From positions 38,334 through 102,333 of the forward strand of contig CAYMTY010000006.1 in assembly GCA_964393515.1 (NCBI GenBank): 64,000 bases of DNA, given 5' to 3'. Shown piece by piece: positions 2,853-14,986 of this stretch. A program made the translations under genes and the position numbers. This DNA comes from an uncultured Verrucomicrobiota bacterium (GTDB lineage Bacteria > Verrucomicrobiota > Kiritimatiellia > CAIQIC01 > Lenti-01). The notes under the pieces were generated by a model that did not search any database, was not told the DNA's origin, and saw only the letters and a program-made list of their open reading frames with translations. How positions within the stretch are numbered: the first letter of the stretch is position 1; each line of letters begins with the position of its first letter.

Positions 2853-3844
2853 TCGGCCTCCGGGACGGATGCCGGAAAGGCCGGGCGCCGCAGCCGCAGG
2901 CCTTCCAGAACGGTGCTGGCCGCGCAGCGGCGGATCGTGTCGCGGGCCAACAGAAACGGATGCCGGGCCAGCATGCCGGCCAGATGCCTCCCGGCTGGAG
3001 CGAATTGCCGGCTGGCCCGCAACTGCCGGTTGTCGCCCAGCACCCGGGCCACCAGCGCTTTTTCCAGCAGGCCGATCTTCGCGGGCGGGACGGGATGGCG
3101 CCGGGCCCAGGCCAGGGCTTCCGCGACCACCCGCGAATTGACGGGCCGGAAGCGGCCCGTGAAGAGGGAGGACGAGTGATTTGCGGCGTGGATCCGGTAG
3201 ACGCAGATCGGCTCCGGACCGGCCGAAACGATGCGCGCCACGCTGGCCAGCTTAAGCCACAGGACCGCATCCTGGGCGACCCGCAGGCGGCTGAATCCGC
3301 CCACGGCCTCGAAGATGCGCTTACGCATCAGGATCGCATTGGCCGACCAGGCCAGACCGCCAAACAGCCGTTTTTCCAGAACGGCTTCCGGATCTTCGCA
3401 ATCGAAAACTGTCTGTTCCCGCACCCGGGGCGCCCGCCATTCCCCCCCGGGTTCGACCACGCGTTGGGTGGTTCCACACACGGCATCCACTTCGGGCGAG
3501 CGGTCGAGGATTTCTGCCGCCCGGGCGAATCGATGGGGATAAACATAGTCGTCCGCGCCCAGGAACGCCAAATAGCTTCCGGTGGCGAGGCGCGCGCCGC
3601 AGTTCAGCGTCCGGCCGACGCCGCGATGGGCGTGGTGTCGGTGGGCCACCGGCCGCACGCCGGGATGCCGCCGCGCCAGATCCCGGGCGATTTCGCGCGA
3701 GCGGTCGCGCGAGCCGTCATCCACAATGACGACCTCCAGGTCGGGATAGCCGGTCGCATACAGGGATTCAACCGCCTGTTCCAGGTACCGGGCGGCATTC
3801 CGGCAGGGGATGATGACGGAGATTCTGTTCGGGGTCACCGGCAT
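2849..3844 (-). CDS. Family 2 glycosyltransferase.
   Basis: MPVTPNRISVIIPCRNAARYLEQAVESLYATGYPDLEVVIVDDGSRD carries the GT2 DxD region. The true start was taken as the internal ATG at 3844, because the track ORF runs on into wzt. Confidence 0.75.
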   Translation of the reverse strand: MPVTPNRISVIIPCRNAARYLEQAVESLYATGYPDLEVVIVDDGSRDRSREIARDLARRHPGVRPVAHRHHAHRGVGRTLNCGARLATGSYLAFLGADDYVYPHRFARAAEILDRSPEVDAVCGTTQRVVEPGGEWRAPRVREQTVFDCEDPEAVLEKRLFGGLAWSANAILMRKRIFEAVGGFSRLRVAQDAVLWLKLASVARIVSAGPEPICVYRIHAANHSSSLFTGRFRPVNSRVVAEALAWARRHPVPPAKIGLLEKALVARVLGDNRQLRASRQFAPAGRHLAGMLARHPFLLARDTIRRCAASTVLEGLRLRRPAFPASVPEAD

Positions 3845-3855
3845 GGTCCCGGCCC

Positions 3856-5172
3856 TCACAGTTGCCGCCAGCGCGCCGCCGGCGCCAACAGCGGCGGCAC
3901 CCGGCCGGTCGGCGCGACATGCGGCGACGCCGATTCGACCCGGAACCAGAGGTGCCGGGCCCCGACCCCTACCGGCTGGAATTTCTCCAGCAGCACCACG
4001 TTGCAGTAGTAGGCGCCCGTGGCCAGCGGCAGCGCCCCCAGGGAGCAGCGAAACCGGCTGGTTCCCGCCGGGAGTGCCAGGGCGGTTTCCGCATCGGACC
4101 GGCACAGGCACAGGAAGACGCCCAGATGGGAATACAGGCCGATGTGCACGGCGAAATGCGCGAACGGCCGGGCGGCGGCCACTTCGAGTTCGAACTCCAG
4201 TTCTTTCCCGTCCTGGTAGATTTCGGAAACCGCGCGGCCGGCATCGCACAGACAGAAGCGGCGCAGCGCCAGCGCGCCGCCGCTCAAATCCCGGTATTCG
4301 TCCCCCGCCCCTTCGACGTGGCCGTCGAGATAGGCTTCGATGCAGGCGGCGGGCGGGCCCTGCTGGACGATGCGGCCGGCTTCCAGCCGCAGGGCCCGGG
4401 TGCAGAGCCGTTCCACGGCCGCCATGTTGTGACTCACAAACAGCACGGTCCGGCCGTGGCTGACCACGTCCTGGATCTTGCCGATGCACTTCTGCTGGAA
4501 TTCGGCGTCGCCCACCGCCAGCACCTCGTCCACGATGAGGATGTCGGGCTCGAGGTGGGCGGCCACGGCGAAGCCCAGGCGCACGACCATGCCGCTGGAG
4601 TAGCGCTTGACGGGCGTGTCGAGAAAGCGGGCGCAGCCGGAGAATTCGACGATTTCGTCCAGCTTGCCCCGGATTTCGGTCCGGGTCATGCCCAGGATCG
4701 CGCCATTGAGGTAAATGTTCTCGCGTCCGGTCAGGTCGGGATGGAACCCGGTGCCGACCTCGAGCAGGCTGGCGATCCGGCCGTCGATGCGGACTTCGCC
4801 CGCGGTGGGCGCCGTCACGCGGCTGAGGATTTTCAGCAGGGTGCTCTTGCCGGCGCCGTTGCGGCCGATGATGCCCAGCACCTCCCCCTGCCGGACCTCG
4901 AACTGGATGTTCCGCAAGGCCCAGACGTAGTCGGAGGAGAGGGCGGAGGGCGGAGAGCTGAAACCTGAAGCGATCGATGTTTCAGCTTTCAGTCTTCCGC
5001 CTTCCGCCCTCTGGTCCCGGATGTTCGCCTGGGTGACCTTGAGATAGGGATCGGGCCGGCCGCGGACCCGGTGCCACCAGCGGTTCAGGTCGTGGGACAG
5101 CGTACCGGTGGAAACCTCCCCCAGCCGGTATTGTTTGGAGAGGTTTTCGACCTGGATGATGACAGAACTCAT
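3856..5172 (-). CDS. wzt: ABC transporter ATP-binding protein for polysaccharide/O-antigen export (Wzt/TagH-like), with a C-terminal carbohydrate-binding extension.
   Basis: Walker A GIIGRNGAGKSTLL, signature YSSGMVVRLGFAVA and Walker B ILIVDEVLAVGD are present. There is a roughly 190-aa C-terminal extension of the kind seen in Wzt. Confidence 0.85.
   Translation of the reverse strand: MSSVIIQVENLSKQYRLGEVSTGTLSHDLNRWWHRVRGRPDPYLKVTQANIRDQRAEGGRLKAETSIASGFSSPPSALSSDYVWALRNIQFEVRQGEVLGIIGRNGAGKSTLLKILSRVTAPTAGEVRIDGRIASLLEVGTGFHPDLTGRENIYLNGAILGMTRTEIRGKLDEIVEFSGCARFLDTPVKRYSSGMVVRLGFAVAAHLEPDILIVDEVLAVGDAEFQQKCIGKIQDVVSHGRTVLFVSHNMAAVERLCTRALRLEAGRIVQQGPPAACIEAYLDGHVEGAGDEYRDLSGGALALRRFCLCDAGRAVSEIYQDGKELEFELEVAAARPFAHFAVHIGLYSHLGVFLCLCRSDAETALALPAGTSRFRCSLGALPLATGAYYCNVVLLEKFQPVGVGARHLWFRVESASPHVAPTGRVPPLLAPAARWRQL
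4935..5012. repeat. 78-bp imperfect palindrome (hairpin) embedded in-frame within wzt.
   Basis: GAGAGGGCGGAGGGCGGAGAGCTGAAACCTGAAGCGATCG is mirrored by CGATGTTTCAGCTTTCAGTCTTCCGCCTTCCGCCCTCTGG at about 85% arm complementarity. It encodes the linker ...AETSIASGFSSPPSALSS.... It shares the CTGAAAGCTGAAAG core with the cassette-1 inverted repeats. Confidence 0.6.
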
Positions 5173-5205
5173 GAGGGATGAGGGCTGAAAGCTGAAAGGT
5201 GAAGT
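5173..5205. repeat. Left inverted repeat of IVS-like cassette 1. It abuts the wzt start codon.
   Basis: GAGGGATGAGGGCTGAAAGCTGAAAGGTGAAG is matched at about 85% by the reverse complement of 5598-5634. Confidence 0.55.
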
Positions 5206-5222
5206 TGACTGAGAAACAACAT

Positions 5223-5590
5223 CTATTTTGCCTTAACCTTCTTGGCCATGGTTACGAATATGGCGATCAATTCATTGGATTCGTGCAGGAGCAACTCCAG
5301 ATTCGGCAAGGTGATTCCGCATTCCTCGCGCAGCAGTTCCAGCCATAACATGGACTCATCCGCCTCTTGTGTGCATAGCTCGATCTTGGCGACAAACTCG
5401 GCATCACTTCGCGCACGGGATGCCTCGCGATAGTTGGCTGCGACGGATGTGCCGGAACGCAGTGTTGCTTGCCCAGTATTTGAACTTCCGGCCGATTCTT
5501 GGGCAAGGTGCAATAAAGCCAGATCACCTTGGCCGCATACTGCTTGGTCCGGAGGCGAAAAGCCTCTTTCTTAGCCTCATATTCCGACAT
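5223..5590 (-). pseudogene. Four-helix-bundle protein (23S rRNA intervening-sequence protein family, TIGR02436/PF05635-like). The gene is disrupted by a 1-nt frameshift.
   Basis: The N-terminal half MSEYEAKKEAFRLRTKQYAAKVIWLYCTLPKNRPEVQILGKQ is in one frame (ORF 5267..5590). The C-terminal half ...GQATLRSGTSVAANYREASRARSDAEFVAKIELCTQ... is in another (ORF 5223..5513). Together they reconstruct the family hallmark L.SQ.RRAA.S...NI.EG. Local GC is low. Confidence 0.6.
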
Positions 5591-5597
5591 CAGCAGT

Positions 5598-5634
5598 TTC
5601 CTCAGCTTTCACCTTTCAGCCCTCAGCCCTCTAT
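5598..5634. repeat. Right inverted repeat of IVS-like cassette 1. It overlaps the wzm stop codon.
   Basis: The reverse complement AGAGGGCTGAGGGCTGAAAGGTGAAAGCTGAGGAAA matches the 5173-5205 repeat. Confidence 0.55.
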
Positions 5635-6545
5635 ACGGTATCCATGAAGGTCCGTTCCACGCGATTGAAGATGGCCACACCGGCCAGGAGCGCGACCACA
5701 GCAAAGGCGGCGCTGTAGGCCAGCAGGCCCCAGGAGAAAGTTCCCTGCCCGAGGAAGCCCAGGCGGAAGGTCTCCACGACGGGGGTCATGGGATTGATCA
5801 GGAGAAACCAGCGCCATTTCGCCGGGATGGCGGCCAGCGGATAGACCACCGGGGCGGCATACATCAGCAGGCGTACGCCGAACTCGAGCAGGAAGCGCAG
5901 GTCGCGGTACTTGGTGGTCAGCGAGCTGAACAGGATGCCCAGGCCCAGGGCCTGGGCGGCCATCAGGAGCACCAGCCCGGGAAACAGCCAAACCGCCCAG
6001 GTCAGTTCGATGTGCGCCCCGCGCCAGGCATACCAGGCCCAGAAGCACAGGAAGAACAGGAACTGCAGGATGAATTTCAACAGATGGGAGAGCGCGAGGG
6101 ACAGCGGCACGGCCAGCCGGGGAAAATACACCTTGCCGAACAGGTGCGCGTTGCCGATGAAGGTGTTGGCCGTCGCGGTGAGCACATTGGCGAAGTACAT
6201 CCAGACCACGTTGCCGCTCAGGTAAAACAGCATGCGCGGCAGGCCGTCGGTGCTCAATTTGGCGATGCTGCTGAACACGACGATGAAAATCAGCGTGGTC
6301 AGGAGCGGCTGGATCACGAACCAGGCCGGCCCGAGGATGGTCTGCTTGAACTGGGCCACGAAATCCCGGCGGACGAACATCGCCACCAGGTCCCGGTACC
6401 GCCAGAGATCGGTCAGGTGCAGGTCGAACCAGCGCACGCGCGGCCGCAGGACCAGCTGCCAGCGATGGTCCGCCGGCATGGGCGTCAGCGGTATCCCGGC
6501 CGGTGAAACGTCCCCGGCGGTTCCGGCAGCGGGAGCGGGATTCAT
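5631..6545 (-). CDS. wzm: ABC-2 type polysaccharide export permease (Wzm-like).
   Basis: Six hydrophobic segments. The ABC-2 fold is indicated by FVRRDFVAQFKQTILGPAWFVIQPLL and LFGKVYFPRLAVPL. Start was chosen at MNPAPAAG, where the ATGA overlaps the upstream stop. Confidence 0.8.
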   Translation of the reverse strand: MNPAPAAGTAGDVSPAGIPLTPMPADHRWQLVLRPRVRWFDLHLTDLWRYRDLVAMFVRRDFVAQFKQTILGPAWFVIQPLLTTLIFIVVFSSIAKLSTDGLPRMLFYLSGNVVWMYFANVLTATANTFIGNAHLFGKVYFPRLAVPLSLALSHLLKFILQFLFFLCFWAWYAWRGAHIELTWAVWLFPGLVLLMAAQALGLGILFSSLTTKYRDLRFLLEFGVRLLMYAAPVVYPLAAIPAKWRWFLLINPMTPVVETFRLGFLGQGTFSWGLLAYSAAFAVVALLAGVAIFNRVERTFMDTV

Positions 6546-7849
6546 GCCGCCGCCCGCCCTTCCTCCGCGGCGGGGCGGGTACCGGCCCACAGGCCGGCCC
6601 AGGCCGCCGCCAGCACAGCGATCAGCGGCATGCGCAAGGGAAAATCAATCAGGCTGTGCAGGCCCAGGGCGGCCAGGCCGAAGCCCAGCGCGCGCCGTTC
6701 GAGGCCGGCAAAGGAAGGGATTTCCATTCTGGGCGGGCCGCCGGATTTCCGGGCGGACAGCGCCAGGCCTGCGGCCAGCAGAGTCCAGAGCCCGCCCAGC
6801 AAGCCGAATTCGGACAGGAACTGGACGGGTTCGCAATGCGCATGCAGGACCATGCGTCCGGCGTTGACCGGCGCCGCATAATAGGGATGCACGATGGAAA
6901 ACGTGCCCGGCCCCGTGCCCCACAGCGGCGCCTCCTGCCAGGCCTTCAGGGTTTCGGCCAGGATGCCGCCGCGGAAATGCCATTCGCGCAGGAAAGCGGC
7001 GGGTTGGCGCCAGCTCCGGGCCAGGGTGACCGCCGCCCAGCCGATCAGGCCGGCCGCGGCCAGCCAGGCCAGCGCCCGGGCCGGCCGCGATCTCGGCGCT
7101 CCGGCGAAGGGATGCTGGCGGACCACCTGGCGGCAGAGGAGCACGTGGGCCGGCACCAGCAGCGCCAGCACCGCCACGCCTGCACGCGACCGGGAGGCCA
7201 CCACGGACGCAGCCAGCACCACGGCCCCCAGCAGCAGCAAGCCCGCTGGACTGGAAGGCCGCCCCGCCTGCACGGCGCTGAACCGGGCGCGGGCCGCCAG
7301 GGCCAGCGCCACCGGCAGGACCAGGTTCGCAAACGCGGCGAAATGGTTTTCATTCACGAAAATGCCGGTGTATTCGTAGATGGGAAAGCGCCGGGGCTCG
7401 AGCCGCTGGGCCAGCACCAGCAAGGCCATGGCGACAGCGCCCAGAACCACCGCCAGCAGCGCACCGCGGATTTGCCGCCCGGAAAGCTGGAACGCCAGGG
7501 CATAGGCGCCCAGCATGGCGGTCGCCACGCCCAACGCCGCCCAGGTCTCCGACGGACAAGCCGAACCCGGCAGGAAGCGCACATGGCCAACCGGCAGCAG
7601 GCCGGCGGCAGCCGTCCATTGGTGGGTGGCATTCCCGGCATAGAGCGCCACCAGCCCCAGCCCGGCAGCCGCGGCCAGCCCAATGCGTCCCCGGCAAGTG
7701 CCGCAGGCCAGGCCTGCGGCCAGCGCCCCCCCCCCCAGCGCCGGCAGCAGCCAGGCGCCCCAGGCCGGCGCCGCAAACGGCACCACCGCGGACGCGCCCA
7801 GCAACAACAGGAGCAGCGCCCCGAACCATGGACAACGGTCGGCTTTCAT
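6542..7849 (-). CDS. O-antigen ligase / Wzy_C family polytopic membrane protein.
   Basis: Multiple TM helices and a periplasmic loop carrying the Wzy_C-like stretch NENHFAAFANLVLPVALALAA. The ATGA start overlaps the wzc stop. Confidence 0.6.
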   Translation of the reverse strand: MKADRCPWFGALLLLLLGASAVVPFAAPAWGAWLLPALGGGALAAGLACGTCRGRIGLAAAAGLGLVALYAGNATHQWTAAAGLLPVGHVRFLPGSACPSETWAALGVATAMLGAYALAFQLSGRQIRGALLAVVLGAVAMALLVLAQRLEPRRFPIYEYTGIFVNENHFAAFANLVLPVALALAARARFSAVQAGRPSSPAGLLLLGAVVLAASVVASRSRAGVAVLALLVPAHVLLCRQVVRQHPFAGAPRSRPARALAWLAAAGLIGWAAVTLARSWRQPAAFLREWHFRGGILAETLKAWQEAPLWGTGPGTFSIVHPYYAAPVNAGRMVLHAHCEPVQFLSEFGLLGGLWTLLAAGLALSARKSGGPPRMEIPSFAGLERRALGFGLAALGLHSLIDFPLRMPLIAVLAAAWAGLWAGTRPAAEEGRAAA

Positions 7850-9996
7850 CCGTCCGCACGGGATTCCGGGCCGGCGGGCGCGGAATGATAGTACCGGTAG
7901 GTGTAGCCGCCATAGCGGCGGTAATAATAATAGTTGGCCATCGACTTGAAATTGACCCCGTTCATGATGCAGCCCAGGCAGGGGGTGCCGCCCTCCTGGA
8001 GCTTGAGGATCGCATGGCGGGCGCCCAGGCTGTGGGTGACGCCGTAGCGAACGACAAACAGCACGCCGTCCACGTTGGGCAGCAGCACGAGGGAATCACT
8101 GACGCCCAGGATCGGCGGGGCATCGACGATGACATGCTGGTACTGTTCGCGCGCCTCCCGGAGGAAATCGACGAACGGCTGGCGGCCGAGCAGTTCGGCG
8201 GGGTGCAGGGGCAGGTGCCCCGAGGAAATCACGCCGAGGTTCGGCACATCCTGCTGAAGCAGGACCTCCCGCCAGCGGGTCTCGCCTTTGAGGACATCGG
8301 CCAGGCCGATCGCGTCCGGTTGCGTGTCGAAAATTCTTGTCAGCACCGGCCGGCGCAGGTCGGCGGCGACCAGCAGGGTGCGGCGGCCGTCCTGGGCCAG
8401 GCTGATGGCCAGGTTGGTCGAAACCAGGGACTTCCCCTCCCCGGGACCGGCACTGGTGATCATCAGGACGGGTGCGTTGCGGATCTCCTCCTTGAGCAGC
8501 AGGCTGGCGCGCAGCGTGCGGAAGGATTCGGCCACCTCGCTGGTCTGCCGCAGATGGGCGACCATGCCGCGCTCCCGCACGGTCTTGTCGCCGATCAAGG
8601 GCACCGTGGCCAGCACGGGCAGGCCCAGCAGGCGCTCGACCTCCTCATTGCGGCGGAACCGGTGGTCGGCATAGTAGAACAGGAAAATCGCGCCGATGCC
8701 GAGGATCAGGCCGAAGGCGGCCCCCCGCACCACGGCCTGGCCCAGCCGCGGCCGGAACGGGGCCTTCGCGGGCCGCGCCTCCTCCACGATGCGGATGATG
8801 TCGGCCGGCAGGGTCTCGGAAATGCTGGCCTCCTTCATGCGGGCGATCACGGCCTGGTGGATCTCGCGGTCGGCCTCGACGTTGAGCTTGAGCTCGTTGT
8901 AGCGCACCAGCTTGCGGTCCAGGTCGAACGCCTCCTTCTCCTGCTTCTTCAGGGCGGCCAGGAGATTCCGCTCCCGCTCGACCAGGACCTCGTAGCGGTT
9001 CTGGAAGGCGTACAGGGCATCGTCGCAGGCCTGTTCAAACTGCTTCTGGAGTTTCTTCTCCTGTTCAAGCGCCTGCTGCAGGTCGGGATACTGTTCGCGG
9101 TAGCGCTGCTGCAGGCGGTCGACCTCGCGCTGCTGCTCCTGGACCCGCTGGTGCGCCGCCTGCACGTTGGCGTCGCTCATCACGGCCGCGATCTTGCTGG
9201 CCGGAACGTTGGTTTCAATCTGCGCCTGGATGGACTTCCAGGCCGTCTCGGCCTGGATGCGCTCCGTCTGGGCTGCAGTCAGCGCCTGGTTCAACGCCTT
9301 GAGCTTGTCGATAACGATGTTCTGGTCCTCCTCCAGCGAAACCGAACCGGTCTCCTCGCGGTAGTGCTGCAGTTCGGCCAGGCCCTTTTCGAGCTTGTCG
9401 CGGTATTCCTCGGAGCGTTCGCGCAGCCACTCGACCGCCTCCAGGGAGGCGTTCATGCGCATGTCGAGGTACTGCTGGATGTAGGACTGGGCGAGGGCGT
9501 TGGCGAAAGCGCTGGCGGCCTGCGGATCGGCATGCTCGACCGTGATGTCGATCATGCGGGTCTTCTCCACCGCCTTGATCGCCACCAGCCTGCGGGCGGC
9601 CTCGGCCTTGTCCTCGGGGGTTTTGCCCCCGGGCAGGAACCCGGGCTGCTGATCCAGCCCGCTCCGTTCCAGGGCCGCCGCCATCATGTTGCGGCTATGG
9701 AGCGCATTCAGGTGCGTGTTGAAGAACTCGAGGCTGCGGGTGTTGTAGGACAGGACATCCTGGAAATTCAGGATCTTGGGGATCTGCGCCTCCACCAGCA
9801 GAGTGGCCGTGCTGCGGTACATCGGCGTCTGGCGGCGGGCGTTGAGGAAAAACAGCAAAAAGACGACGGCGGCCACCGACAGGCCCAGCCAGGCGCGTTC
9901 CATGAGGATGGCCACGGCCTCGCGCCAGTCGGGAAACTTGGAGAGGCTGTTTTCGCCGCTGTCGCCGCCGTTCGCAATGTAGGGGGTCTTGGTCAT
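7846..9996 (-). CDS. wzc: Polysaccharide co-polymerase with a C-terminal BY-kinase domain (Wzc/GumC/EpsG-like, PCP-2a).
   Basis: N-terminal Wzz-like domain with two TM segments, long coiled coils, a Walker A motif (MITSAGPGEGKSLVSTNLA) and a tyrosine-rich tail (YYYRRYGGYTYRYY). Confidence 0.85.
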   Translation of the reverse strand: MTKTPYIANGGDSGENSLSKFPDWREAVAILMERAWLGLSVAAVVFLLFFLNARRQTPMYRSTATLLVEAQIPKILNFQDVLSYNTRSLEFFNTHLNALHSRNMMAAALERSGLDQQPGFLPGGKTPEDKAEAARRLVAIKAVEKTRMIDITVEHADPQAASAFANALAQSYIQQYLDMRMNASLEAVEWLRERSEEYRDKLEKGLAELQHYREETGSVSLEEDQNIVIDKLKALNQALTAAQTERIQAETAWKSIQAQIETNVPASKIAAVMSDANVQAAHQRVQEQQREVDRLQQRYREQYPDLQQALEQEKKLQKQFEQACDDALYAFQNRYEVLVERERNLLAALKKQEKEAFDLDRKLVRYNELKLNVEADREIHQAVIARMKEASISETLPADIIRIVEEARPAKAPFRPRLGQAVVRGAAFGLILGIGAIFLFYYADHRFRRNEEVERLLGLPVLATVPLIGDKTVRERGMVAHLRQTSEVAESFRTLRASLLLKEEIRNAPVLMITSAGPGEGKSLVSTNLAISLAQDGRRTLLVAADLRRPVLTRIFDTQPDAIGLADVLKGETRWREVLLQQDVPNLGVISSGHLPLHPAELLGRQPFVDFLREAREQYQHVIVDAPPILGVSDSLVLLPNVDGVLFVVRYGVTHSLGARHAILKLQEGGTPCLGCIMNGVNFKSMANYYYYRRYGGYTYRYYHSAPAGPESRADG

Positions 9997-10071
9997 AGAC
10001 TATAGGCGGTAGGCGGCGGACTGTAGGGGAAAGAAGTCATAGGGATTAGGCTGCAGGGGGTGGGCTGTAGG
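9997..10071. repeat. Left inverted-repeat region of IVS-like cassette 2 (ATAGGCGGTAGGCGG / GGCTGTAGG motifs).
   Basis: CTATAGGCGGTAGGCGGCGGACTGTAGGGG ... GGGCTGTAGG pairs with the reverse complement of 10452-10489 (GACGATAGGCTGTAGGCTGTAGCCG). Confidence 0.5.
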
Positions 10072-10074
10072 TTT

Positions 10075-10432
10075 TCATTTGTTGCGCATGGAACGAATCA
10101 GCGCTCCAAGTACTTTTTCAGATTCCGGCATTTTCAAGTCGCCCTCACAAGCGATCTTTTCGCCAATATATCCCAACCGCAGGGACAACCCGAACTGGTA
10201 ATGCAGTTCTCGCAAGGAACCAAATGCCACTTTGAGAAAATGCCGGTATTCGGCTTGGCTCTCATATGCATATCCCTCCACAATGTTGGATACAACTGAA
10301 ACCGCCGCCCGCCTCATTTGCGAGGTCAAACCAAACAACTCTTCTTTGGGCAAACTCCCGCGTGATCCGGTAGACCAAAATCGCAATCCCGTCAGCCAGT
10401 TTAAAGGCCCTGAGCTTCGTATGATCCCGCAT
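10075..10432 (-). pseudogene. Four-helix-bundle protein (23S rRNA IVS protein family), second copy. Disrupted by a 1-nt insertion.
   Basis: N-terminus MRDHTKLRAFKLADGIAILVYRITREF in one frame. C-terminus ...PKEELFGLTSQMRRAAVSVVSNIVEGYAYESQAEYRHFLKVAFGSLRELHYQF... in the +1 frame (ORF 10075..10386). The extra base lies in GAGTTTGCCCAAAG. Confidence 0.6.
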
Positions 10433-10451
10433 TGCTTTCCTAACGTCTTCC

Positions 10452-10489
10452 CGGCTACAGCCTACAGCCTATCGTCTACAGCCTTCTTC
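10452..10489. repeat. Right inverted repeat of IVS-like cassette 2.
   Basis: CGGCTACAGCCTACAGCCTATCGTCTACAGCC is the reverse-complement partner of the 10003-10030 region. It ends at the wza stop codon. Confidence 0.5.
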
Positions 10490-11155
10490 CTAGAACAGCA
10501 CCTGATCCACCGTGATGACATCGTTGGGTTCAAGCGGGACATCCTTTTCCCCGTCCCTGCTGCGCAGCAGGTCCGACACCCGGATCCGCAGAGTGTCCTG
10601 GTGCCCGTCGGGCGTGCGCCGCACAATGCGGACGCGGTCCGGGCTGGCCAGTTCGGTGAAGCCACCCGCCCCGGCAATGGCCTGTAGCAAGGTCATGGAA
10701 CTGCCAAACGGTAGGGGGTAGACCCCGGGCTTCTTCACCTCGCCCAGCAGCACGATCTGGGAGCTCTGGGTGGACACCATCTTGAGGATGACTCGCGGGT
10801 TGACCAGATAGTCCTTGGCCAGACGCGCGGTCAGCGCCGCCTCGGCTTCCTTGACCGTCTGGCGGTCCAGCAGCACGGTCCCCAGCAGCGGATGGCGGAT
10901 TTCCCCCTCCGGGCTGATCTGGAACACGCCGGACAGCTCGGGCTCGCGGTAAACCTGGATATCGATCTCGTCGCCCGGCTGCAGGAGGTATTCAGGGGGG
11001 ATTCCGGCCGCGGCGGGCGGCGCCGCCGGCGCGGGTTGCGCCCGCGGCTGCGCGGCCGCCGGCGGGTGGGCGCAGCCGGCGGACATCCCCGCCAGCCCCA
11101 GGCTCAGGACGGCCGCGACTCCGCACCGCCGGATTGTGGTCATACGCGATTCCAT
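10490..11155 (-). CDS. wza: Polysaccharide export outer-membrane lipoprotein (Wza/OPX-like: Poly_export plus SLBB domains).
   Basis: Lipobox-like signal (...LAGMSAGC). Also IQVYREPELSGVFQISPEGEIRHPLLGTV and DVITVDQVLF, typical of the Poly_export/SLBB domain. Confidence 0.8.
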   Translation of the reverse strand: MESRMTTIRRCGVAAVLSLGLAGMSAGCAHPPAAAQPRAQPAPAAPPAAAGIPPEYLLQPGDEIDIQVYREPELSGVFQISPEGEIRHPLLGTVLLDRQTVKEAEAALTARLAKDYLVNPRVILKMVSTQSSQIVLLGEVKKPGVYPLPFGSSMTLLQAIAGAGGFTELASPDRVRIVRRTPDGHQDTLRIRVSDLLRSRDGEKDVPLEPNDVITVDQVLF

Positions 11156-12508: not shown

Positions 12509-14406
12509 CGGTTCGCCTCCAGGTAGCGGAAGCCCTGGATCAGCTCGATTTCCCGCCGATTGTACGGGGTGCCGTCCGGCTCCAGCACGCCCTGCTGCCA
12601 GAGATCCGGATCCTTTTCCGACCGGAAGTGGGGCTGCTGAATTTCCAACTGGGTCTTGCCTTGCACGAGGCCGCGGTTGAACCAGCCCACCCGGTAGGCG
12701 GAGAACAGCGGCAGCACCTTCTCGAAGTCGTTGCCGGTCTGGCGCATCAGCCAGTCGGCGCAGATGATCGGGCGGTTGTAGCGCTGGAGCAGAAGCAAAC
12801 GCGCCTCGATGCTTTCGACATTGTCGAAGCTCTGGAAGGTGATCAGGTCGGAGCGTTCCAGCTTGCGGGTGGCCATCGCGCTGCCGAACTCGCGCCAGGC
12901 GGCGACCGCCAGCGGCTGGGAAGCCTCGACCGAGCGGGCCCAGTTGAAGGTCTGGTCCATCAGCGGCAGGGATTCCTCCCACAGCCCGCTGTTGCCGGCG
13001 GTGTTGTAGAGGTCCCAGTAGAGGATCCGGCCGTCGCGCTTGAACCGGCCCATCACGTCCTTGACGTATTTCTCCAAGGCGGACCATTGCGCGCGGTCGG
13101 TGACGGCGGCATGGGCCGGGCTGGGCACCCAGCGGCTGTTGTACTGGCCCGGCACCGGTTCGGGCTGGGGCCCGGGCTGCGGCGGCTGGCCGGCCAGGTC
13201 CAGGTCGTCGAACAGCACCGGCACGATGCGCAGCCCGTGCTTGCCGGCCAGGTCGAGCAGCTGGTCCACGCGCTTCAGGAAGCCGTCGGGATCGGCCTGC
13301 CACACCACGAACTGCAGCGGGACGCGGATGGCCGTGTAGCCGAGGCTGCGGGCCCAGCTGAGCTCTTCGTCGATCGTGTCGGGATCGAAGGTGTCCGCCA
13401 TCCACATTTCCACGGAGTTGACGGCGGTGCGGGGAATGTAGTTGACACCCTTGATCGTGCCGATGTTTTCAAACCAGTTCCAGATGCGCAGCTCCTCCCA
13501 GCGCCCGCCCGGCGCCCCCGCCCCCGGCCGGGGCAGCCTCGCGGGCACGGCCGAGGCTACGGACGGACGGATCGTCGGGCTGGCGTCGGTGACCAACGCG
13601 CCGGAATCCAGCGTGACGATGTCGGAGGACAGCCCCAGGTACTGCGCCAGCCCGTCCCGGTCGAAACCGCGCTCGCGGTAGATGAAGGGCTCCAGGTCGG
13701 CAAAGAACGTGTTGCACAGTTCGAAGTAATGGAGTTCGGGATCGGTCGCCACGCCCTCCTCTTGCAGGTCGCTGCGCTCGGTCTCCGGATCGAACGTCAT
13801 CCGGGCGGCTTCGCCGGCCTGCAGTTCGGTGCGATTGCCGCCGCGGGGCACGACCGCCAGTTCGTAGGCATCGCTGTAGACGTCCCAGCCCTCCCGGCCC
13901 TTCTGCGCCACGACGAACGAACCGCCCTGCGCCTCGACAGTGCCGGCCGGGGTCTCGATCCGGATGTCGAGCGTCGGAGACGGCGGTCCAGCCTGCACGC
14001 GCATCCGGCCCTTGTGGAGCTGGAGGTGGATGCGCCGGACCAGATCGTCCTCGGTCCGGGGCAGGCCATCGGCGGTATGCCGCAGCTGCATGATCGTAAA
14101 CTCGGTGTTGGGGGCCACGCACAGGATCGCTCCTGGCGAGCAAACCATGCACAGCCGGCCGTCCCTGCCGGTCATTACGCGGGTACTCTCGCCCACCGCC
14201 GCGCCTTCCAACAGCCCCCGCGTCTCCTGGCGCCCTTCGTGCACGGGTGCGGTATAGACCCGGGCGGTGGCCCGGCCAGCCTGGGCCGCCACGACGGCCT
14301 CCCCCGTCGGCGGCAGCGCGCGGGCCGGCAGCGCCAGCAGCCAGCCGAAGGCCAAGCCAGCCATGGCCAACCGGCCGGTCCGGAAAACGATGCTTGTCTT
14401 GTTCAT
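12505..14406 (-). CDS. Secreted protein with an N-terminal FecR-like beta-sandwich and a C-terminal TIM-barrel glycoside-hydrolase-like domain (GH5/cellulase-superfamily-like).
   Basis: Signal peptide MNKTSIVFRTGRLAMAGLAFGWLLALPARA. Glycosidase-like stretches IKGVNYIPRTAVNSVEMW and YTAIRVPLQFVVW. A canonical NEP catalytic motif was not found, so enzymatic activity is uncertain. Confidence 0.4.
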   Translation of the reverse strand: MNKTSIVFRTGRLAMAGLAFGWLLALPARALPPTGEAVVAAQAGRATARVYTAPVHEGRQETRGLLEGAAVGESTRVMTGRDGRLCMVCSPGAILCVAPNTEFTIMQLRHTADGLPRTEDDLVRRIHLQLHKGRMRVQAGPPSPTLDIRIETPAGTVEAQGGSFVVAQKGREGWDVYSDAYELAVVPRGGNRTELQAGEAARMTFDPETERSDLQEEGVATDPELHYFELCNTFFADLEPFIYRERGFDRDGLAQYLGLSSDIVTLDSGALVTDASPTIRPSVASAVPARLPRPGAGAPGGRWEELRIWNWFENIGTIKGVNYIPRTAVNSVEMWMADTFDPDTIDEELSWARSLGYTAIRVPLQFVVWQADPDGFLKRVDQLLDLAGKHGLRIVPVLFDDLDLAGQPPQPGPQPEPVPGQYNSRWVPSPAHAAVTDRAQWSALEKYVKDVMGRFKRDGRILYWDLYNTAGNSGLWEESLPLMDQTFNWARSVEASQPLAVAAWREFGSAMATRKLERSDLITFQSFDNVESIEARLLLLQRYNRPIICADWLMRQTGNDFEKVLPLFSAYRVGWFNRGLVQGKTQLEIQQPHFRSEKDPDLWQQGVLEPDGTPYNRREIELIQGFRYLEANR

Positions 14407-14444
14407 GGCTTGCTATACCTTTTTTCCAGAATCCGAACCCCGCC

Positions 14445-14882
14445 ATGTCCGATTCCCGGGAAATCGTCGAAAGCCTGCTCCAGCAGCACACGACCGTTAC
14501 CTTCCAGGCCCAGGGCCTTAGCATGACACCCGCCATCCGCGCCGGCGACCTGGTCCATGTCCGGCCGGCCGCAGGCCCGGATCTGCGCCGGGGCAGCGTC
14601 GTTCTGTACCGGAACCATGGCCGCCTGATCCTGCACCGGCTGGTGGCCTGCGACCGCCAGGCCGCCCGCGTGCGAACGGCCGCGGATGCCGCGCTGGCCG
14701 GCGGCGACTGGATCCCCGTCGCGGACATTCTGGGCGTGGCCGAATCGGTCCGCCATGGCGACCGGCTCCAGCGCCTGGACACGGCGCCGGCCCGACTGGC
14801 CGGCCTGCTGCGCTATGCCCTGCGGCCGCTGCGCCGCTTGGCAATCGCCCTGAATCGCCGTTTGAAACCACTGGTCCTGTAG
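14445..14882 (+). CDS. Small soluble S24/S26-family serine peptidase-like protein (signal-peptidase/LexA-like fold). It appears to be of the Ser/His type.
   Basis: GLSMTPAIRAGDLVHV carries the nucleophile motif. The position normally occupied by the KR(V/L) general base reads RLILHRLVA, as in S26B/SEC11-type enzymes. No N-terminal TM helix. Confidence 0.55.
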   Translation: MSDSREIVESLLQQHTTVTFQAQGLSMTPAIRAGDLVHVRPAAGPDLRRGSVVLYRNHGRLILHRLVACDRQAARVRTAADAALAGGDWIPVADILGVAESVRHGDRLQRLDTAPARLAGLLRYALRPLRRLAIALNRRLKPLVL

Positions 14883-14936
14883 GGGCTCAGCTTGCTGAGC
14901 CCGGGATCTAGGCTGAGCAAGCTCAGCCCCTACAAG
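14883..14936. terminator. Twin GC-rich hairpins between convergent genes. Candidate bidirectional terminator.
   Basis: GGGGCTCAGCttGCTGAGCCC and GGCTGAGCaaGCTCAGCCC lie immediately after the TAG of the S24-like gene, 50 bp before the HprK-like gene stop. There is no U-tract. Confidence 0.35.
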
Positions 14937-14986
14937 TCGTGAATCCAATCGGCCACCCCTTGGATATTGAATATTGAATCCCATTT

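What the first reader, a model, noticed from the sequence alone, without database searches (positions are those of the whole stretch)
4935..5012. 78-bp palindromic element inserted in-frame inside the wzt coding sequence
The palindrome is near-perfect, with arms of about 36 bp (about 85% complementary) centred on CGATCG. It is exactly 26 codons long and sits in the linker between the Wzt N-terminal extension and the ABC domain. It shares the CTGAAAGCTGAAAG core with the inverted repeats flanking IVS-like cassette 1, which lies 170 bp away. This looks like a REP/MITE-like hairpin family that has colonised both intergenic and coding DNA.
Basis: seen in the sequence. Interest (0 to 1): 0.55.

Follow-up and report, generated by a model that had tools for sequence, protein, structure and literature searches.

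The report
Gene-less IVS-type hairpin inside wzt
An 85-bp DNA hairpin is translated as about 20 extra residues in a floppy loop of a sugar-polymer export ATPase; it has the same kind of stem that brackets the small "intervening sequence" gene cassettes first described in ribosomal RNA, and unrelated bacteria carry such hairpins at this same spot of the protein.

Summary
The palindrome is real. Its arms are 4933-4969 and 4981-5017 (37 nt, 81% complementary), its RNA fold has z = -7.75, and it is identical in four independent assemblies. It lies in frame in wzt (3856-5172, minus strand).

- **What it is made of.** Each arm is a run of tandem heptamers (GAGGGCG/GAAAGCT). The arms match, at 79-84%, the inverted repeats of the adjacent 460-bp cassette (5173-5632). 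That cassette carries a frameshifted PF05635 "23S rRNA intervening-sequence protein" gene. The published Coxiella 23S rRNA IVS has comparable parts: an inverted-repeat stem cut by RNase III, tandem heptamers beginning at the cleavage site, and an S23p ORF. I read the palindrome as a gene-less IVS-type hairpin.
- **It is an insertion.** The closest insert-less ortholog is 60 nt shorter at this site.
- **Where it sits in the protein.** It occupies the predicted disordered stretch between the gate helix and strand β2 of the Wzt ATPase domain.
- **Reading frame.** Only the frame in use is free of TGA.
- **Recurrence.** Hairpins of several repeat types occupy this one site in many Wzt lineages. They usually co-occur with an IVP or GxxExxY cassette between wzm and wzt.
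- **Open points.** The mobility mechanism, RNase III cleavage and the copy number in this genome are untested.

Verdict: a new variant of known kinds (rRNA IVS elements; Rickettsia-like in-frame palindromes).

The parts
4933..5017 (-). Palindromic hairpin element: arms 4933-4969 and 4981-5017, loop 4970-4980. Each arm is 4-5 tandem heptamers (mRNA sense GAGGGCG GAAGGCG GAAGACU GAAAGCU GAAAC). It is translated as about 20 extra residues of Wzt (...RAEGGRLKAETSIASGFSSPPSALSS...).
   Evidence: period-7 arrays at 4939-4955 and 4994-5008. TGA occurs only in frames 1 and 2; 60 nt more than the insert-less ortholog L126.
3856..5172 (-). wzt: ATP-binding subunit of a Wzm-Wzt type polysaccharide ABC exporter, 438 aa. 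This is the host gene of the hairpin.
   Evidence: ABC_tran 1e-21; Wzt_C weak. (Aquifex Wzt 6amx, E = 2.9e-65). (AF2 mean pLDDT 84.9, but below 50 for residues 44-77). (operon context).
5173..5632 (-). IVS-type cassette 1. It exactly fills the wzm-wzt spacer. Heptamer-repeat inverted arms lie at 5173-5204 and 5602-5632 (30 nt, 90% complementary).
   Evidence: I2.. (in the 751-nt fold the arms pair with each other). (79.5% identical to the orthologous cassette of L127).
5223..5590 (-). Frameshifted PF05635/TIGR02436 'four helix bundle / 23S rRNA intervening-sequence protein' gene, the cargo of cassette 1. It is split into ORFs 5267-5590 and 5223-5513.
   Evidence: PF05635, 3.3e-09, on the C-terminal ORF. 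(1-nt deletion relative to the intact 122-aa gene of L127).
5631..6590 (-). wzm: ABC-2 membrane subunit, immediately upstream in the operon. The start codon is uncertain; gene callers give 304 aa.
9996..10492 (-). IVS-type cassette 2 in the same operon. It has a different heptamer family (GGCTGTA / CTACAGC arms) and a TIGR02436 four-helix-bundle ORF at 10075-10386.
   Evidence: period-7 array at 10455-10484. (TIGR02436, 9e-24).

Best explanation
The 85-bp palindrome is a gene-less (solo) member of a family of hairpin elements. In this family each arm is an array of tandem 7-8-nt repeats.

The full-length members are small cassettes. One such hairpin brackets a single co-oriented gene, either a PF05635 four-helix-bundle 'IVS protein' or a PF13366 GxxExxY nuclease-fold protein. 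The S23p-type intervening sequences of 23S rRNA have comparable parts.

**At the DNA level (shown).** The hairpin is an addition of about 60 nt to wzt. Its arms resemble the arms of the cassette about 160 bp upstream more than they resemble the hairpin at the orthologous position of the closest relative.

**Origin (inferred).** It was seeded from, or homogenised with, the local cassette family. This could be by a still unknown insertion mechanism or by gene conversion.

**Why it survives (shown).**
- It sits in the disordered stretch between the gate helix and strand β2 of the Wzt nucleotide-binding domain.
- The one reading frame in use is the only frame without TGA.

**At the RNA level (inferred).** It forms a stem of about 33 bp, imperfect, of the kind RNase III cuts in rRNA IVSs. 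In the mRNA it is therefore either melted by ribosomes or acts as a processing or decay site.

**At the protein level (inferred).** It adds about 20 low-complexity residues with no required function.

Overall it is a selfish or near-neutral passenger, not a domain.
For: **Anatomy.** The arms are tandem heptamers and match the cassette arms at 81-84%.

**Arms cluster by genome, not by position.**

| Comparison | Matches out of 24 |
|---|---|
| Window hairpin vs window cassette | 19-20 |
| L005 hairpin vs L005 cassette | 20-22 |
| Window vs L005 | 13-17 |

The flanking wzt DNA of the window and L005 is 83-88% identical, but the insert only 62%.

**It is an insertion.**
- It is absent from P0003-P0006.
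- 106 of 124 representative homologs have only 5-11 residues at this site.

**Link to rRNA IVSs.** The Coxiella IVS has a 28-bp terminal inverted-repeat stem and tandem heptamers (GACAGAT x3) upstream of the S23p ORF. RNase III cuts at the first repeat (PMC4990558).

**Cassette cargo.** IVP: L127, L148, L153, L164, L167, L005, L211. GxxExxY: L128, L006, L209, L212.

**Turnover at the wzm-wzt junction in syntenic operons.**
- L126 has no cassette.
- The window and L127 share a cassette (79.5% identical).
- L005 carries a different IVP cassette (60% identical).
- L128 carries a GxxExxY cassette.

**The family beyond this window.**
- At least 119 exact hits to a 25-nt arm pattern in many phyla. 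58 have a partner arm within 200 nt; only 2 have IVP cargo.
- In-frame copies in MutS2, PS_pyruv_trans and an FAD monooxygenase.

**Tolerance and selection on the frame.**
- pLDDT is below 50 for residues 44-77.
- TGA occurs in frames 1 and 2 only, whereas the cassette arm has TGA in all three frames.
- In L005 and L006 the repeat that would put TGA in frame is mutated.

**No strong selection on the stem.** In seven other loci the z-score ranges from -1.0 to -4.7.
Against: - No mobility has been seen. There is no target-site duplication, no recombinase or transposase, and no presence/absence polymorphism; all four assemblies are identical.
- Copy number in this genome outside the window is unknown.
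- A purely neutral passenger does not explain why every insertion of 12 residues or more in 120 homologs sits at this one site.
- It also does not explain why 7 of 8 insert-bearing loci have a cassette upstream, against 6 of 56 insert-less loci. Shared ancestry confounds that test.
- In L006 and L209 the wzt hairpin (GCTGAAA type) differs from the arms of the adjacent GxxExxY cassette (CAGAA type). Derivation from the neighbouring cassette is therefore not general.
- RNase III cleavage is extrapolated from rRNA IVSs, not tested.
Confidence: 0.65

Rival explanations
1. The hairpin is a selected cis-regulatory mRNA structure. A stem about 160 nt into wzt, possibly acting together with the cassette stem that abuts the wzt start codon, would set Wzt dosage relative to Wzm. 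It could do this through RNase III cleavage, ribosome pausing or control of translation initiation.
For: - The same site carries hairpins in many lineages.
- They co-occur with a cassette at the wzm-wzt junction (p = 2e-5).
- In the 751-nt fold both stems form, and the wzt AUG lies directly at the base of the cassette stem with no separate Shine-Dalgarno sequence.
- RNase III cuts such stems in rRNA.
- The window's stem is well kept (z about -6 to -7.8).
Against: - The distribution on the Wzt tree is patchy. The nearest relatives at 81% and 78% identity lack the hairpin.
- About 85% of representative homologs have the compact loop.
- Stems in other lineages are decayed, with z down to -1.0.
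- Repeat type, period (7 or 8 nt) and length vary freely, and some loops hold nested half-arms. This looks like turnover, not conservation.
- The cassette cargo in the window is a pseudogene.
Confidence: 0.17
2. The segment is kept for the protein. A flexible charged-then-serine-rich spacer after the gate helix would tune substrate recruitment or Wzm contact, and the DNA symmetry is only a relic of how the spacer arose.
For: - The site follows the gate helix, which is proposed to form the substrate-binding site (PMC6379404).
- The reading frame is kept open, and in L005 and L006 the repeat that would put TGA in frame is mutated.
- Inserts persist in many lineages.
Against: - Peptides differ completely between hairpin types (KAEKLK...SAFQHFS, GTTENTEG...SLQSTV, ETGNRK..., TNNK...). 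Lengths run from 25 to 125 aa.
- The region is predicted disordered.
- The DNA-level symmetry in the window is far stronger than any peptide constraint would require.
- Most homologs work with a 9-residue loop.
Confidence: 0.08
3. The hairpin arose in place rather than by arrival of a ready-made element. Slippage would have expanded a purine-rich native sequence (K-G-E-S = AAAGGNGAAAGYGA), and fold-back template switching or conversion from the nearby cassette arm would then have created the inverted copy.
For: - Some insert-less orthologs read AAAGGTGAAAGCGA at the site, which resembles the cassette arm CTGAAAGGTGAAAGC.
- Arms cluster by genome.
- The number of heptamer copies varies by slippage among Coxiella strains.
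Against: - The test for arm-like sequence at the native site was negative. The site score was no higher than elsewhere in the gene (median p = 0.48; 3 of 27 loci at p <= 0.05).
- L006 and L209 carry a hairpin type different from the neighbouring cassette.
- Near-identical 25-nt arm patterns occur in many phyla, which argues for spread of ready-made elements.
Confidence: 0.1

Closest known systems
S23p-type intervening sequences (IVS) of 23S rRNA (Coxiella burnetii, Leptospira, Brucella, Xanthomonas); PMC4990558
   Same: - Terminal inverted repeats form a stem of about 28-30 bp, and tandem heptamers lie on the 5' side of the S23p ORF, starting at the RNase III cleavage site in the stem.
- In the full-length form, a co-oriented PF05635 (S23p) ORF sits in the loop.
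- The ORF is often decaying, as it is in the window.
- Window cassettes 1 and 2 have all of these features. The wzt palindrome has the stem.
   Different: - It is not in rRNA. The cassettes lie between protein genes of an operon, and the palindrome lies inside a coding sequence and is translated.
- The palindrome has no ORF.
- RNase III excision is untested here.
- The heptamer sequences are unrelated to Coxiella's GACAGAT.
- A second kind of cargo (GxxExxY, PF13366) occupies the same position in related loci.
Rickettsia palindromic elements (RPE); reviewed in PMC10969869
   Same: Short palindromic repeats, multi-copy, repeatedly inserted in frame into unrelated protein-coding genes at positions compatible with the fold. 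They add a peptide segment to the product.
   Different: - There is no sequence relationship.
- RPEs are about 100-150 bp with a conserved encoded peptide, are confined to Rickettsia, and have no gene-carrying full-length form.
- Here the arms are tandem heptamers. The elements are found in many phyla, are tied to IVP and GxxExxY cassettes, and recur at one site of one protein family.
MITEs and REP/BIME-type extragenic palindromes
   Same: Small, non-autonomous-looking inverted-repeat elements, far more numerous than the gene-carrying forms. Among 119 scanned loci, 58 short hairpins had a partner arm and 2 were IVP cassettes.
   Different: No target-site duplication, and no transposase or RAYT partner identified. 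The whole element is the inverted repeat. The arms have an internal 7-8-nt periodicity.
Tandem heptanucleotide repeats of cyanobacteria (STRR; recalled from my own knowledge, not checked here) and the TAACTGA repeats of Beggiatoaceae (PMC4679880)
   Same: Arrays of tandem 7-nt units in non-coding DNA, with stop codons in some frames that limit where they can sit in genes. The same unit is shared across distant lineages.
   Different: Those are direct arrays upstream of genes. Here two inverted arrays form a hairpin, and one copy is translated.

Membership tests
S23p-type rRNA intervening sequence (IVS) | Terminal inverted repeats forming a long stem | tested here: met
   Palindrome: 37-nt arms, 81% complementary, -53.7 kcal/mol, z = -7.75. 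Cassette 1: 30-nt arms, 90%; the arms pair with each other in the 751-nt fold.
S23p-type rRNA intervening sequence (IVS) | Tandem heptamer repeats at or within the stem arm | tested here: met
   TRF finds period-7 arrays at 4939-4955, 4994-5008, 5184-5203 and 5616-5631. For Coxiella, see PMC4990558.
S23p-type rRNA intervening sequence (IVS) | PF05635 (S23p) ORF in the loop, co-oriented with the host transcript | tested here: not met
   The palindrome has an 11-nt loop and no ORF. The feature is met by the adjacent cassette 1 (frameshifted PF05635) and by cassette 2. The palindrome is therefore at most a gene-less derivative.
S23p-type rRNA intervening sequence (IVS) | Located in helix 25 or 45 of 23S rRNA | tested here: not met
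   It lies inside the wzt coding sequence. Rfam finds no rRNA or other family in 3800-6700.
S23p-type rRNA intervening sequence (IVS) | Excised from the transcript by RNase III | not testable with these tools
   Only the predicted stem is available.
Rickettsia palindromic elements (RPE-like in-frame palindromes) | Palindromic repeat inserted in frame in a protein-coding gene, at a site compatible with the fold | tested here: met
   The ORF is intact. The segment is an insertion relative to orthologs. It lies in a loop with pLDDT below 50.
Rickettsia palindromic elements (RPE-like in-frame palindromes) | Multi-copy in the same genome, including several different genes | tested here: inconclusive
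   The window holds only this copy plus the cassette arms. Other genomes hold several copies and in-frame copies in other genes. The rest of this genome could not be searched.
Rickettsia palindromic elements (RPE-like in-frame palindromes) | Sequence homology to the RPE-1 to RPE-10 families | not tested
   No RPE sequences were compared. The tandem-heptamer composition and the non-rickettsial hosts make homology unlikely (inference).
MITE | Target-site duplication flanking the terminal inverted repeats | tested here: not met
   Filled and empty sites were compared in alignment A3. No direct repeat is seen at the junctions (...CGGGACCAG|AGGGCGG...CCGCCCTCT|CCTCCGAC). The boundaries are blurred by divergence.
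MITE | Related autonomous element encoding a transposase | tested here: not met
   The gene-carrying relatives encode PF05635 or PF13366 proteins, not a known transposase. Whether either protein mediates mobility is unknown.
REP / REPIN-RAYT | Extragenic palindromes associated with a RAYT (IS200/IS605-like) gene | not tested
   The element is intragenic. No RAYT gene was searched for in the window.

The most novel reading that the evidence does not exclude
The S23p/four-helix-bundle and GxxExxY small-gene cassettes, the classical 23S rRNA IVSs and the gene-less heptamer hairpins may be one widespread, uncharacterised class of structure-targeting mobile elements.
- They would have no conventional transposase.
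- They would home to existing hairpins or to particular junctions, such as the wzm-wzt boundary and the Wzt gate-helix loop.
- They would swap cargo at a fixed site and leave translated solo stems behind.
- The cargo proteins (a pentameric nucleic-acid binder; a PD-(D/E)XK nuclease fold) would act on their own heptamer arms.
Probability: 0.3. Interest if true: 0.8.

Novelty: new variant of a known kind. Interest (0 to 1): 0.6.

Why it matters
- **Origin of rRNA intervening sequences.** This has been an open question since 1990 (transposon relic or mobile element; PMC4990558). Here the same architecture sits in an mRNA operon, with an empty site, alternative cargo genes and gene-less stems at orthologous positions. 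That makes gain, loss and replacement directly comparable.
- **In-frame colonisation beyond Rickettsia.** Colonisation of proteins by palindromic repeats is not confined to Rickettsia. One loop of a well-studied transporter family, next to its proposed substrate-binding helix, is a recurrent landing site.
- **Annotation.** The low-complexity peptides KAEKLK...SAFQHFSISAF in Wzt and other proteins are translated repeat DNA, not domains.

Tried and rejected
1. **Arm-like native target.** I tested whether the native wzt site attracts the element because it resembles an arm. The best 14-mer match to an arm library at the site was compared with the rest of the gene in 27 insert-less loci. There was no enrichment (median p = 0.48). 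Rejected.
2. **Known RNA family.** The Rfam scan of 3800-6700 gave only sub-threshold generic microRNA-precursor hits on the hairpin.
3. **Copy number in this genome.** The question stays open.
4. **Metagenome scan for Wzt loci.** The 80 loci kept were almost all insert-less (1 clear insert, L137), because ranking favours uninterrupted alignments. I used them only as background. Conversely, the roughly 50% insert frequency among the top 120 hits is inflated by closeness to the query. The less biased figure is 8 of 124.
5. **Target-site duplication.** None was recognisable.
6. **More PF05635 genes in the window.** tblastn with the cassette-1 protein found none. The second cassette was too divergent for this search and was found through its heptamer arrays.
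7. **Derivation from the neighbouring cassette as a general rule.** Contradicted by L006 and L209.
8. **Literature.** Searches for non-rRNA IVP or GxxExxY cassettes with heptamer arms found nothing in the held library.
Full report
**1. The observation**

The sequence at 4933-5017 is a near-perfect palindrome.
- The repeat finder reports arms 4933-4969 and 4981-5017, 37 nt each and 81% complementary. They are separated by 11 nt that contain CGATCG.
- As RNA, the 101 nt around it fold at -53.7 kcal/mol. Dinucleotide shuffles give -29.5 +/- 3.1 (z = -7.75; none of 200 folds as well).
- An 801-nt stretch holding the palindrome and the neighbouring cassette is identical in contigs assembled independently from four sequencing runs. 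It is not an assembly artefact.
- The palindrome lies inside the minus-strand ORF 3856-5172 (438 aa). That ORF has an ABC_tran domain (residues 86-217) and a weak Wzt_C match. Its best solved relative is Aquifex aeolicus Wzt (E = 2.9e-65).
- The operon around it encodes Wzm, a Wzy_C protein, a tyrosine-kinase-like protein, a Poly_export protein and glycosyltransferases.

**2. Anatomy**

Each arm is a short array of tandem heptamers.
- TRF finds period-7 arrays at 4939-4955 (GAGGGCG) and 4994-5008 (CTTCCGC). It also finds them in the arms of the adjacent cassette at 5184-5203 (GCTGAAA) and 5616-5631 (TCAGCCC).
- The cassette (5173-5632) exactly fills the space between the wzm stop and the wzt start. 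Its 30-nt arms are 90% complementary.
- The cassette carries a PF05635 '23S rRNA intervening-sequence protein' gene. The gene is broken by a 1-nt deletion relative to the intact 122-aa ortholog in locus L127.
- The palindrome's arms match the cassette's arms at 81-84% over 31 nt, in the same heptamer register (D1, D2, I3).
The window holds four matches where 0.2 are expected.

**3. It is an insertion, in a permissive loop**

Orthologs 81%, 78%, 71% and 66% identical lack the segment. The 85% identical one (P0002) has a segment at the same place with a quite different sequence.

At the DNA level the window has 60 nt more than the insert-less locus L126. So '26 codons' describes the extent of the palindrome, not the size of the gain, and the ends of the palindrome are not on codon boundaries.

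Where it sits in the protein:
- In an AlphaFold2 model (mean pLDDT 84.9), residues 44-77 fall below pLDDT 50.
- They lie between a helix at 25-36 and a strand at 82-94.
- In solved Wzt the 'gate helix' is formed by an extended connection of β-strands 1 and 2 of the nucleotide-binding domain (PMC6379404).
- The insert therefore lies in that connection, after the gate helix. It is not between a separate N-terminal extension and the ABC domain.

The reading frame:
- The hairpin's 5' arm has TGA only in frames 1 and 2. The frame in use is the only open one.
- The cassette's 5' arm has TGA in all three frames.
- In L005 and L006, the one repeat unit that would place TGA in frame is mutated (GCTGAAAA to ACGGAAAA or GCGAAAAA).

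**4. What the family is**

The published Coxiella burnetii 23S rRNA IVS has a 28-bp stem made of terminal inverted repeats. It has three tandem heptamers (GACAGAT) upstream of an S23p (PF05635) ORF. RNase III cuts in the stem at the first repeat. The heptamer copy number differs among strains, and the ORF is decaying (PMC4990558).

Window cassette 1 has all of these features except the rRNA location. So does a second cassette in the same operon, at about 9996-10492. That one has a different heptamer (GGCTGTA/CTACAGC) and a TIGR02436 four-helix-bundle ORF.

The palindrome has the stem but no ORF. I therefore read it as a gene-less derivative of this kind of element. Rfam holds nothing that matches it.

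**5. Dynamics at the wzm-wzt junction**

| Locus | Wzt identity to window | Between wzm and wzt | Segment at the wzt site |
|---|---|---|---|
| L126 | 81% | nothing; the genes overlap by 4 nt | none |
| L127 | 78% | the window's cassette, intact (79.5% DNA identity) | 15 aa |
| L005 | 85% | a different IVP cassette (60% identity; 8-nt repeats GCTGAAAA) | its own hairpin |
| L128 | 71% | a PF13366 GxxExxY cassette with CAGAA-type arms | 14 aa |

The cargo at one site has therefore been replaced faster than the host genes diverge.

Arms cluster by genome rather than by position:
- Window hairpin vs window cassette: 19-20 of 24.
- L005 hairpin vs L005 cassette: 20-22 of 24.
- Window vs L005: 13-17 of 24.

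The wzt flanks of these two loci are 83-88% identical, but the inserts only 62%.

**6. The same loop is hit again and again**

- Among the 120 best homologs, about 60 have 25-125 residues at this site instead of 8-11.
- The peptides are translated hairpins of at least four repeat types: KAEKLK...SAFQHFSISAF, GTTENTEG...SLQSTVCSLKS, ETGNRK... and TNNK....
- All 51 insertions of 12 residues or more lie at this one position.
- That sample is enriched by closeness to the query. With an insert-less query against representatives clustered at 50% identity, 8 of 124 carry 25 residues or more, and 106 have 5-11.
- On a neighbour-joining tree the inserts are scattered and the types are interleaved.

I obtained DNA for eight insert-bearing loci.
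- It folds better than shuffles in most of them, but z ranges from -1.0 to -6.0. Stems decay after they arrive.
- L212 and L210 hold half-arms of a second repeat type nested in the hairpin loop.
- L211 has a 1071-nt wzm-wzt spacer packed with GCTGAAA arms.

An IVP or GxxExxY cassette lies upstream in 7 of 8 insert-bearing loci, against 6 of 56 insert-less ones (Fisher p = 2e-5). Shared ancestry inflates that contrast.

**7. Beyond Wzt**

They come from Acidobacteriota, Chloroflexota, Abditibacteriota, Gammaproteobacteria, PVC phyla, cyanobacteria and others, with several hits per genome in some MAGs.
- In 58 cases a partner arm lies within 200 nt downstream. Only two loci have IVP cargo next to the motif.
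- About one in ten of the short hairpins lies inside a long ORF.
- Pfam confirms that three of these ORFs are real genes with domains on both sides of the insert: a polysaccharide pyruvyl transferase, MutS2 (in the linker before the Smr domain) and an FAD monooxygenase.

**8. How it most likely works**

*Shown:*
- The element is an added, translated, stop-free hairpin of IVS type in a disordered loop.
- It belongs with the local cassette arms.
- Such elements are gained, lost and replaced.

*Inferred:*
- It arrived by an unknown insertion mechanism or by conversion from the cassette family.
- Its RNA stem (about 33 bp, imperfect) is either melted by ribosomes or cut by RNase III, as in rRNA IVSs.
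- The 20 residues have no required role.

In the 751-nt fold the cassette arms pair with each other, and the wzt AUG sits at the base of that stem. So processing could matter for wzt expression. This keeps a regulatory rival alive at about 0.17.

I tested one explanation for the site preference, resemblance of the native sequence to an arm, and it failed. The single-site recurrence remains unexplained.

**9. Comparison and novelty**

The closest known systems are:
- the S23p-type rRNA IVSs, which have the same architecture but a different host molecule;
- the Rickettsia palindromic elements, which behave the same way in coding DNA but are unrelated in sequence and have no cargo form (PMC10969869).

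MITE and REP membership is not supported: there is no target-site duplication and no transposase. Literature searches found no description of IVS-type cassettes in mRNA operons, of their GxxExxY counterpart, or of translated solo stems.

I rate it a new variant of known kinds, with interest 0.6. The palindrome by itself is a modest curiosity. The recurrent landing site and the cargo turnover make an old question about IVS origin approachable.

Noticed in passing
window 9996-10492: A second IVS-type cassette lies in the same operon, between the 716-aa kinase-like gene (7846-9996) and the Poly_export gene (10490-11155). It has GGCTGTA/CTACAGC heptamer arms and a TIGR02436 four-helix-bundle ORF at 10075-10386. 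The arm family is unrelated to that of cassette 1.
   Followed up: partly
window 14878-14934 and 14960-14979: A 24-nt-arm, 92% palindrome (TGTAGGGGCTCAGCTTGCTGAGCC / GGCTGAGCAAGCTCAGCCCCTACA) starts at the stop codon of ORF 14247-14882. It is followed by TTGAATA x2.9. This is a different hairpin type, possibly a terminator or another repeat family.
   Followed up: no
window 5172-5204 (mRNA sense ...CCCUCAUCCCUC AUG): The wzt start codon directly abuts the 3' arm of the cassette stem, with no separate Shine-Dalgarno sequence. The purine-rich 5' arms (GAGGG...) are Shine-Dalgarno-like and the 3' arms (CCCUC) are anti-Shine-Dalgarno-like.
   Followed up: partly
L126, L127, L128, L005, L006, L209, L211, L212 (wzm-wzt spacers): The same intergenic site is empty or holds an IVP cassette or a GxxExxY (PF13366) cassette in syntenic operons. 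Within this clade, IVP cargo goes with GCTGAAA-type arms and GxxExxY cargo with CRCAGAA-type arms. All cargo genes are co-oriented with the operon.
   Followed up: partly
L211 1929-3001: A 1071-nt wzm-wzt spacer contains an IVP gene and more than ten arrays of GCTGAAA/TTTCAGC repeats in both orientations. The wzt insert of the same locus has a duplicated 3' arm (73-aa segment).
   Followed up: no
L212 wzt insert (877 + about 160 nt) and L210 wzt insert: The hairpin loops contain an unpaired half-arm of a second repeat family (GGAACCACAGAAGGCGCAGAAAACACAGAAGG in L212, matching the left arm of that locus's GxxExxY cassette). This suggests nested insertion into existing hairpins.
   Followed up: no
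L097 2197-2267, L080 5054-5129, L099 3444-3504: In-frame heptamer hairpins (peptides such as GMRDEGGGMK...LSPQPSALIP) lie inside three genes: MutS2, before the Smr domain, in a Thermoanaerobaculia MAG; a polysaccharide pyruvyl transferase in an Abditibacteriaceae MAG; and an FAD monooxygenase in a Rhodanobacteraceae MAG.
   Followed up: partly
L007-L125 (genome-contig hits): Near-identical 25-nt arm patterns (GAGGGAT/GAGGGCG/GAGGGCT units ending in TGAAA) are shared by many phyla. This points to horizontal spread or a common constraint on the heptamer sequence. AT-rich genomes use quite different heptamers (ATGTTTA, GAATAGT, GGTTAGA in L153, L164, L167).
   Followed up: no
L127 6120-6198, L128 6123-6198, L126 1124-1190: Insert-less close relatives have 11-15 residues at the site instead of the usual 9. 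L127 keeps a small GGCAC...GTGCC palindrome there. These may be remnants of deleted hairpins.
   Followed up: no
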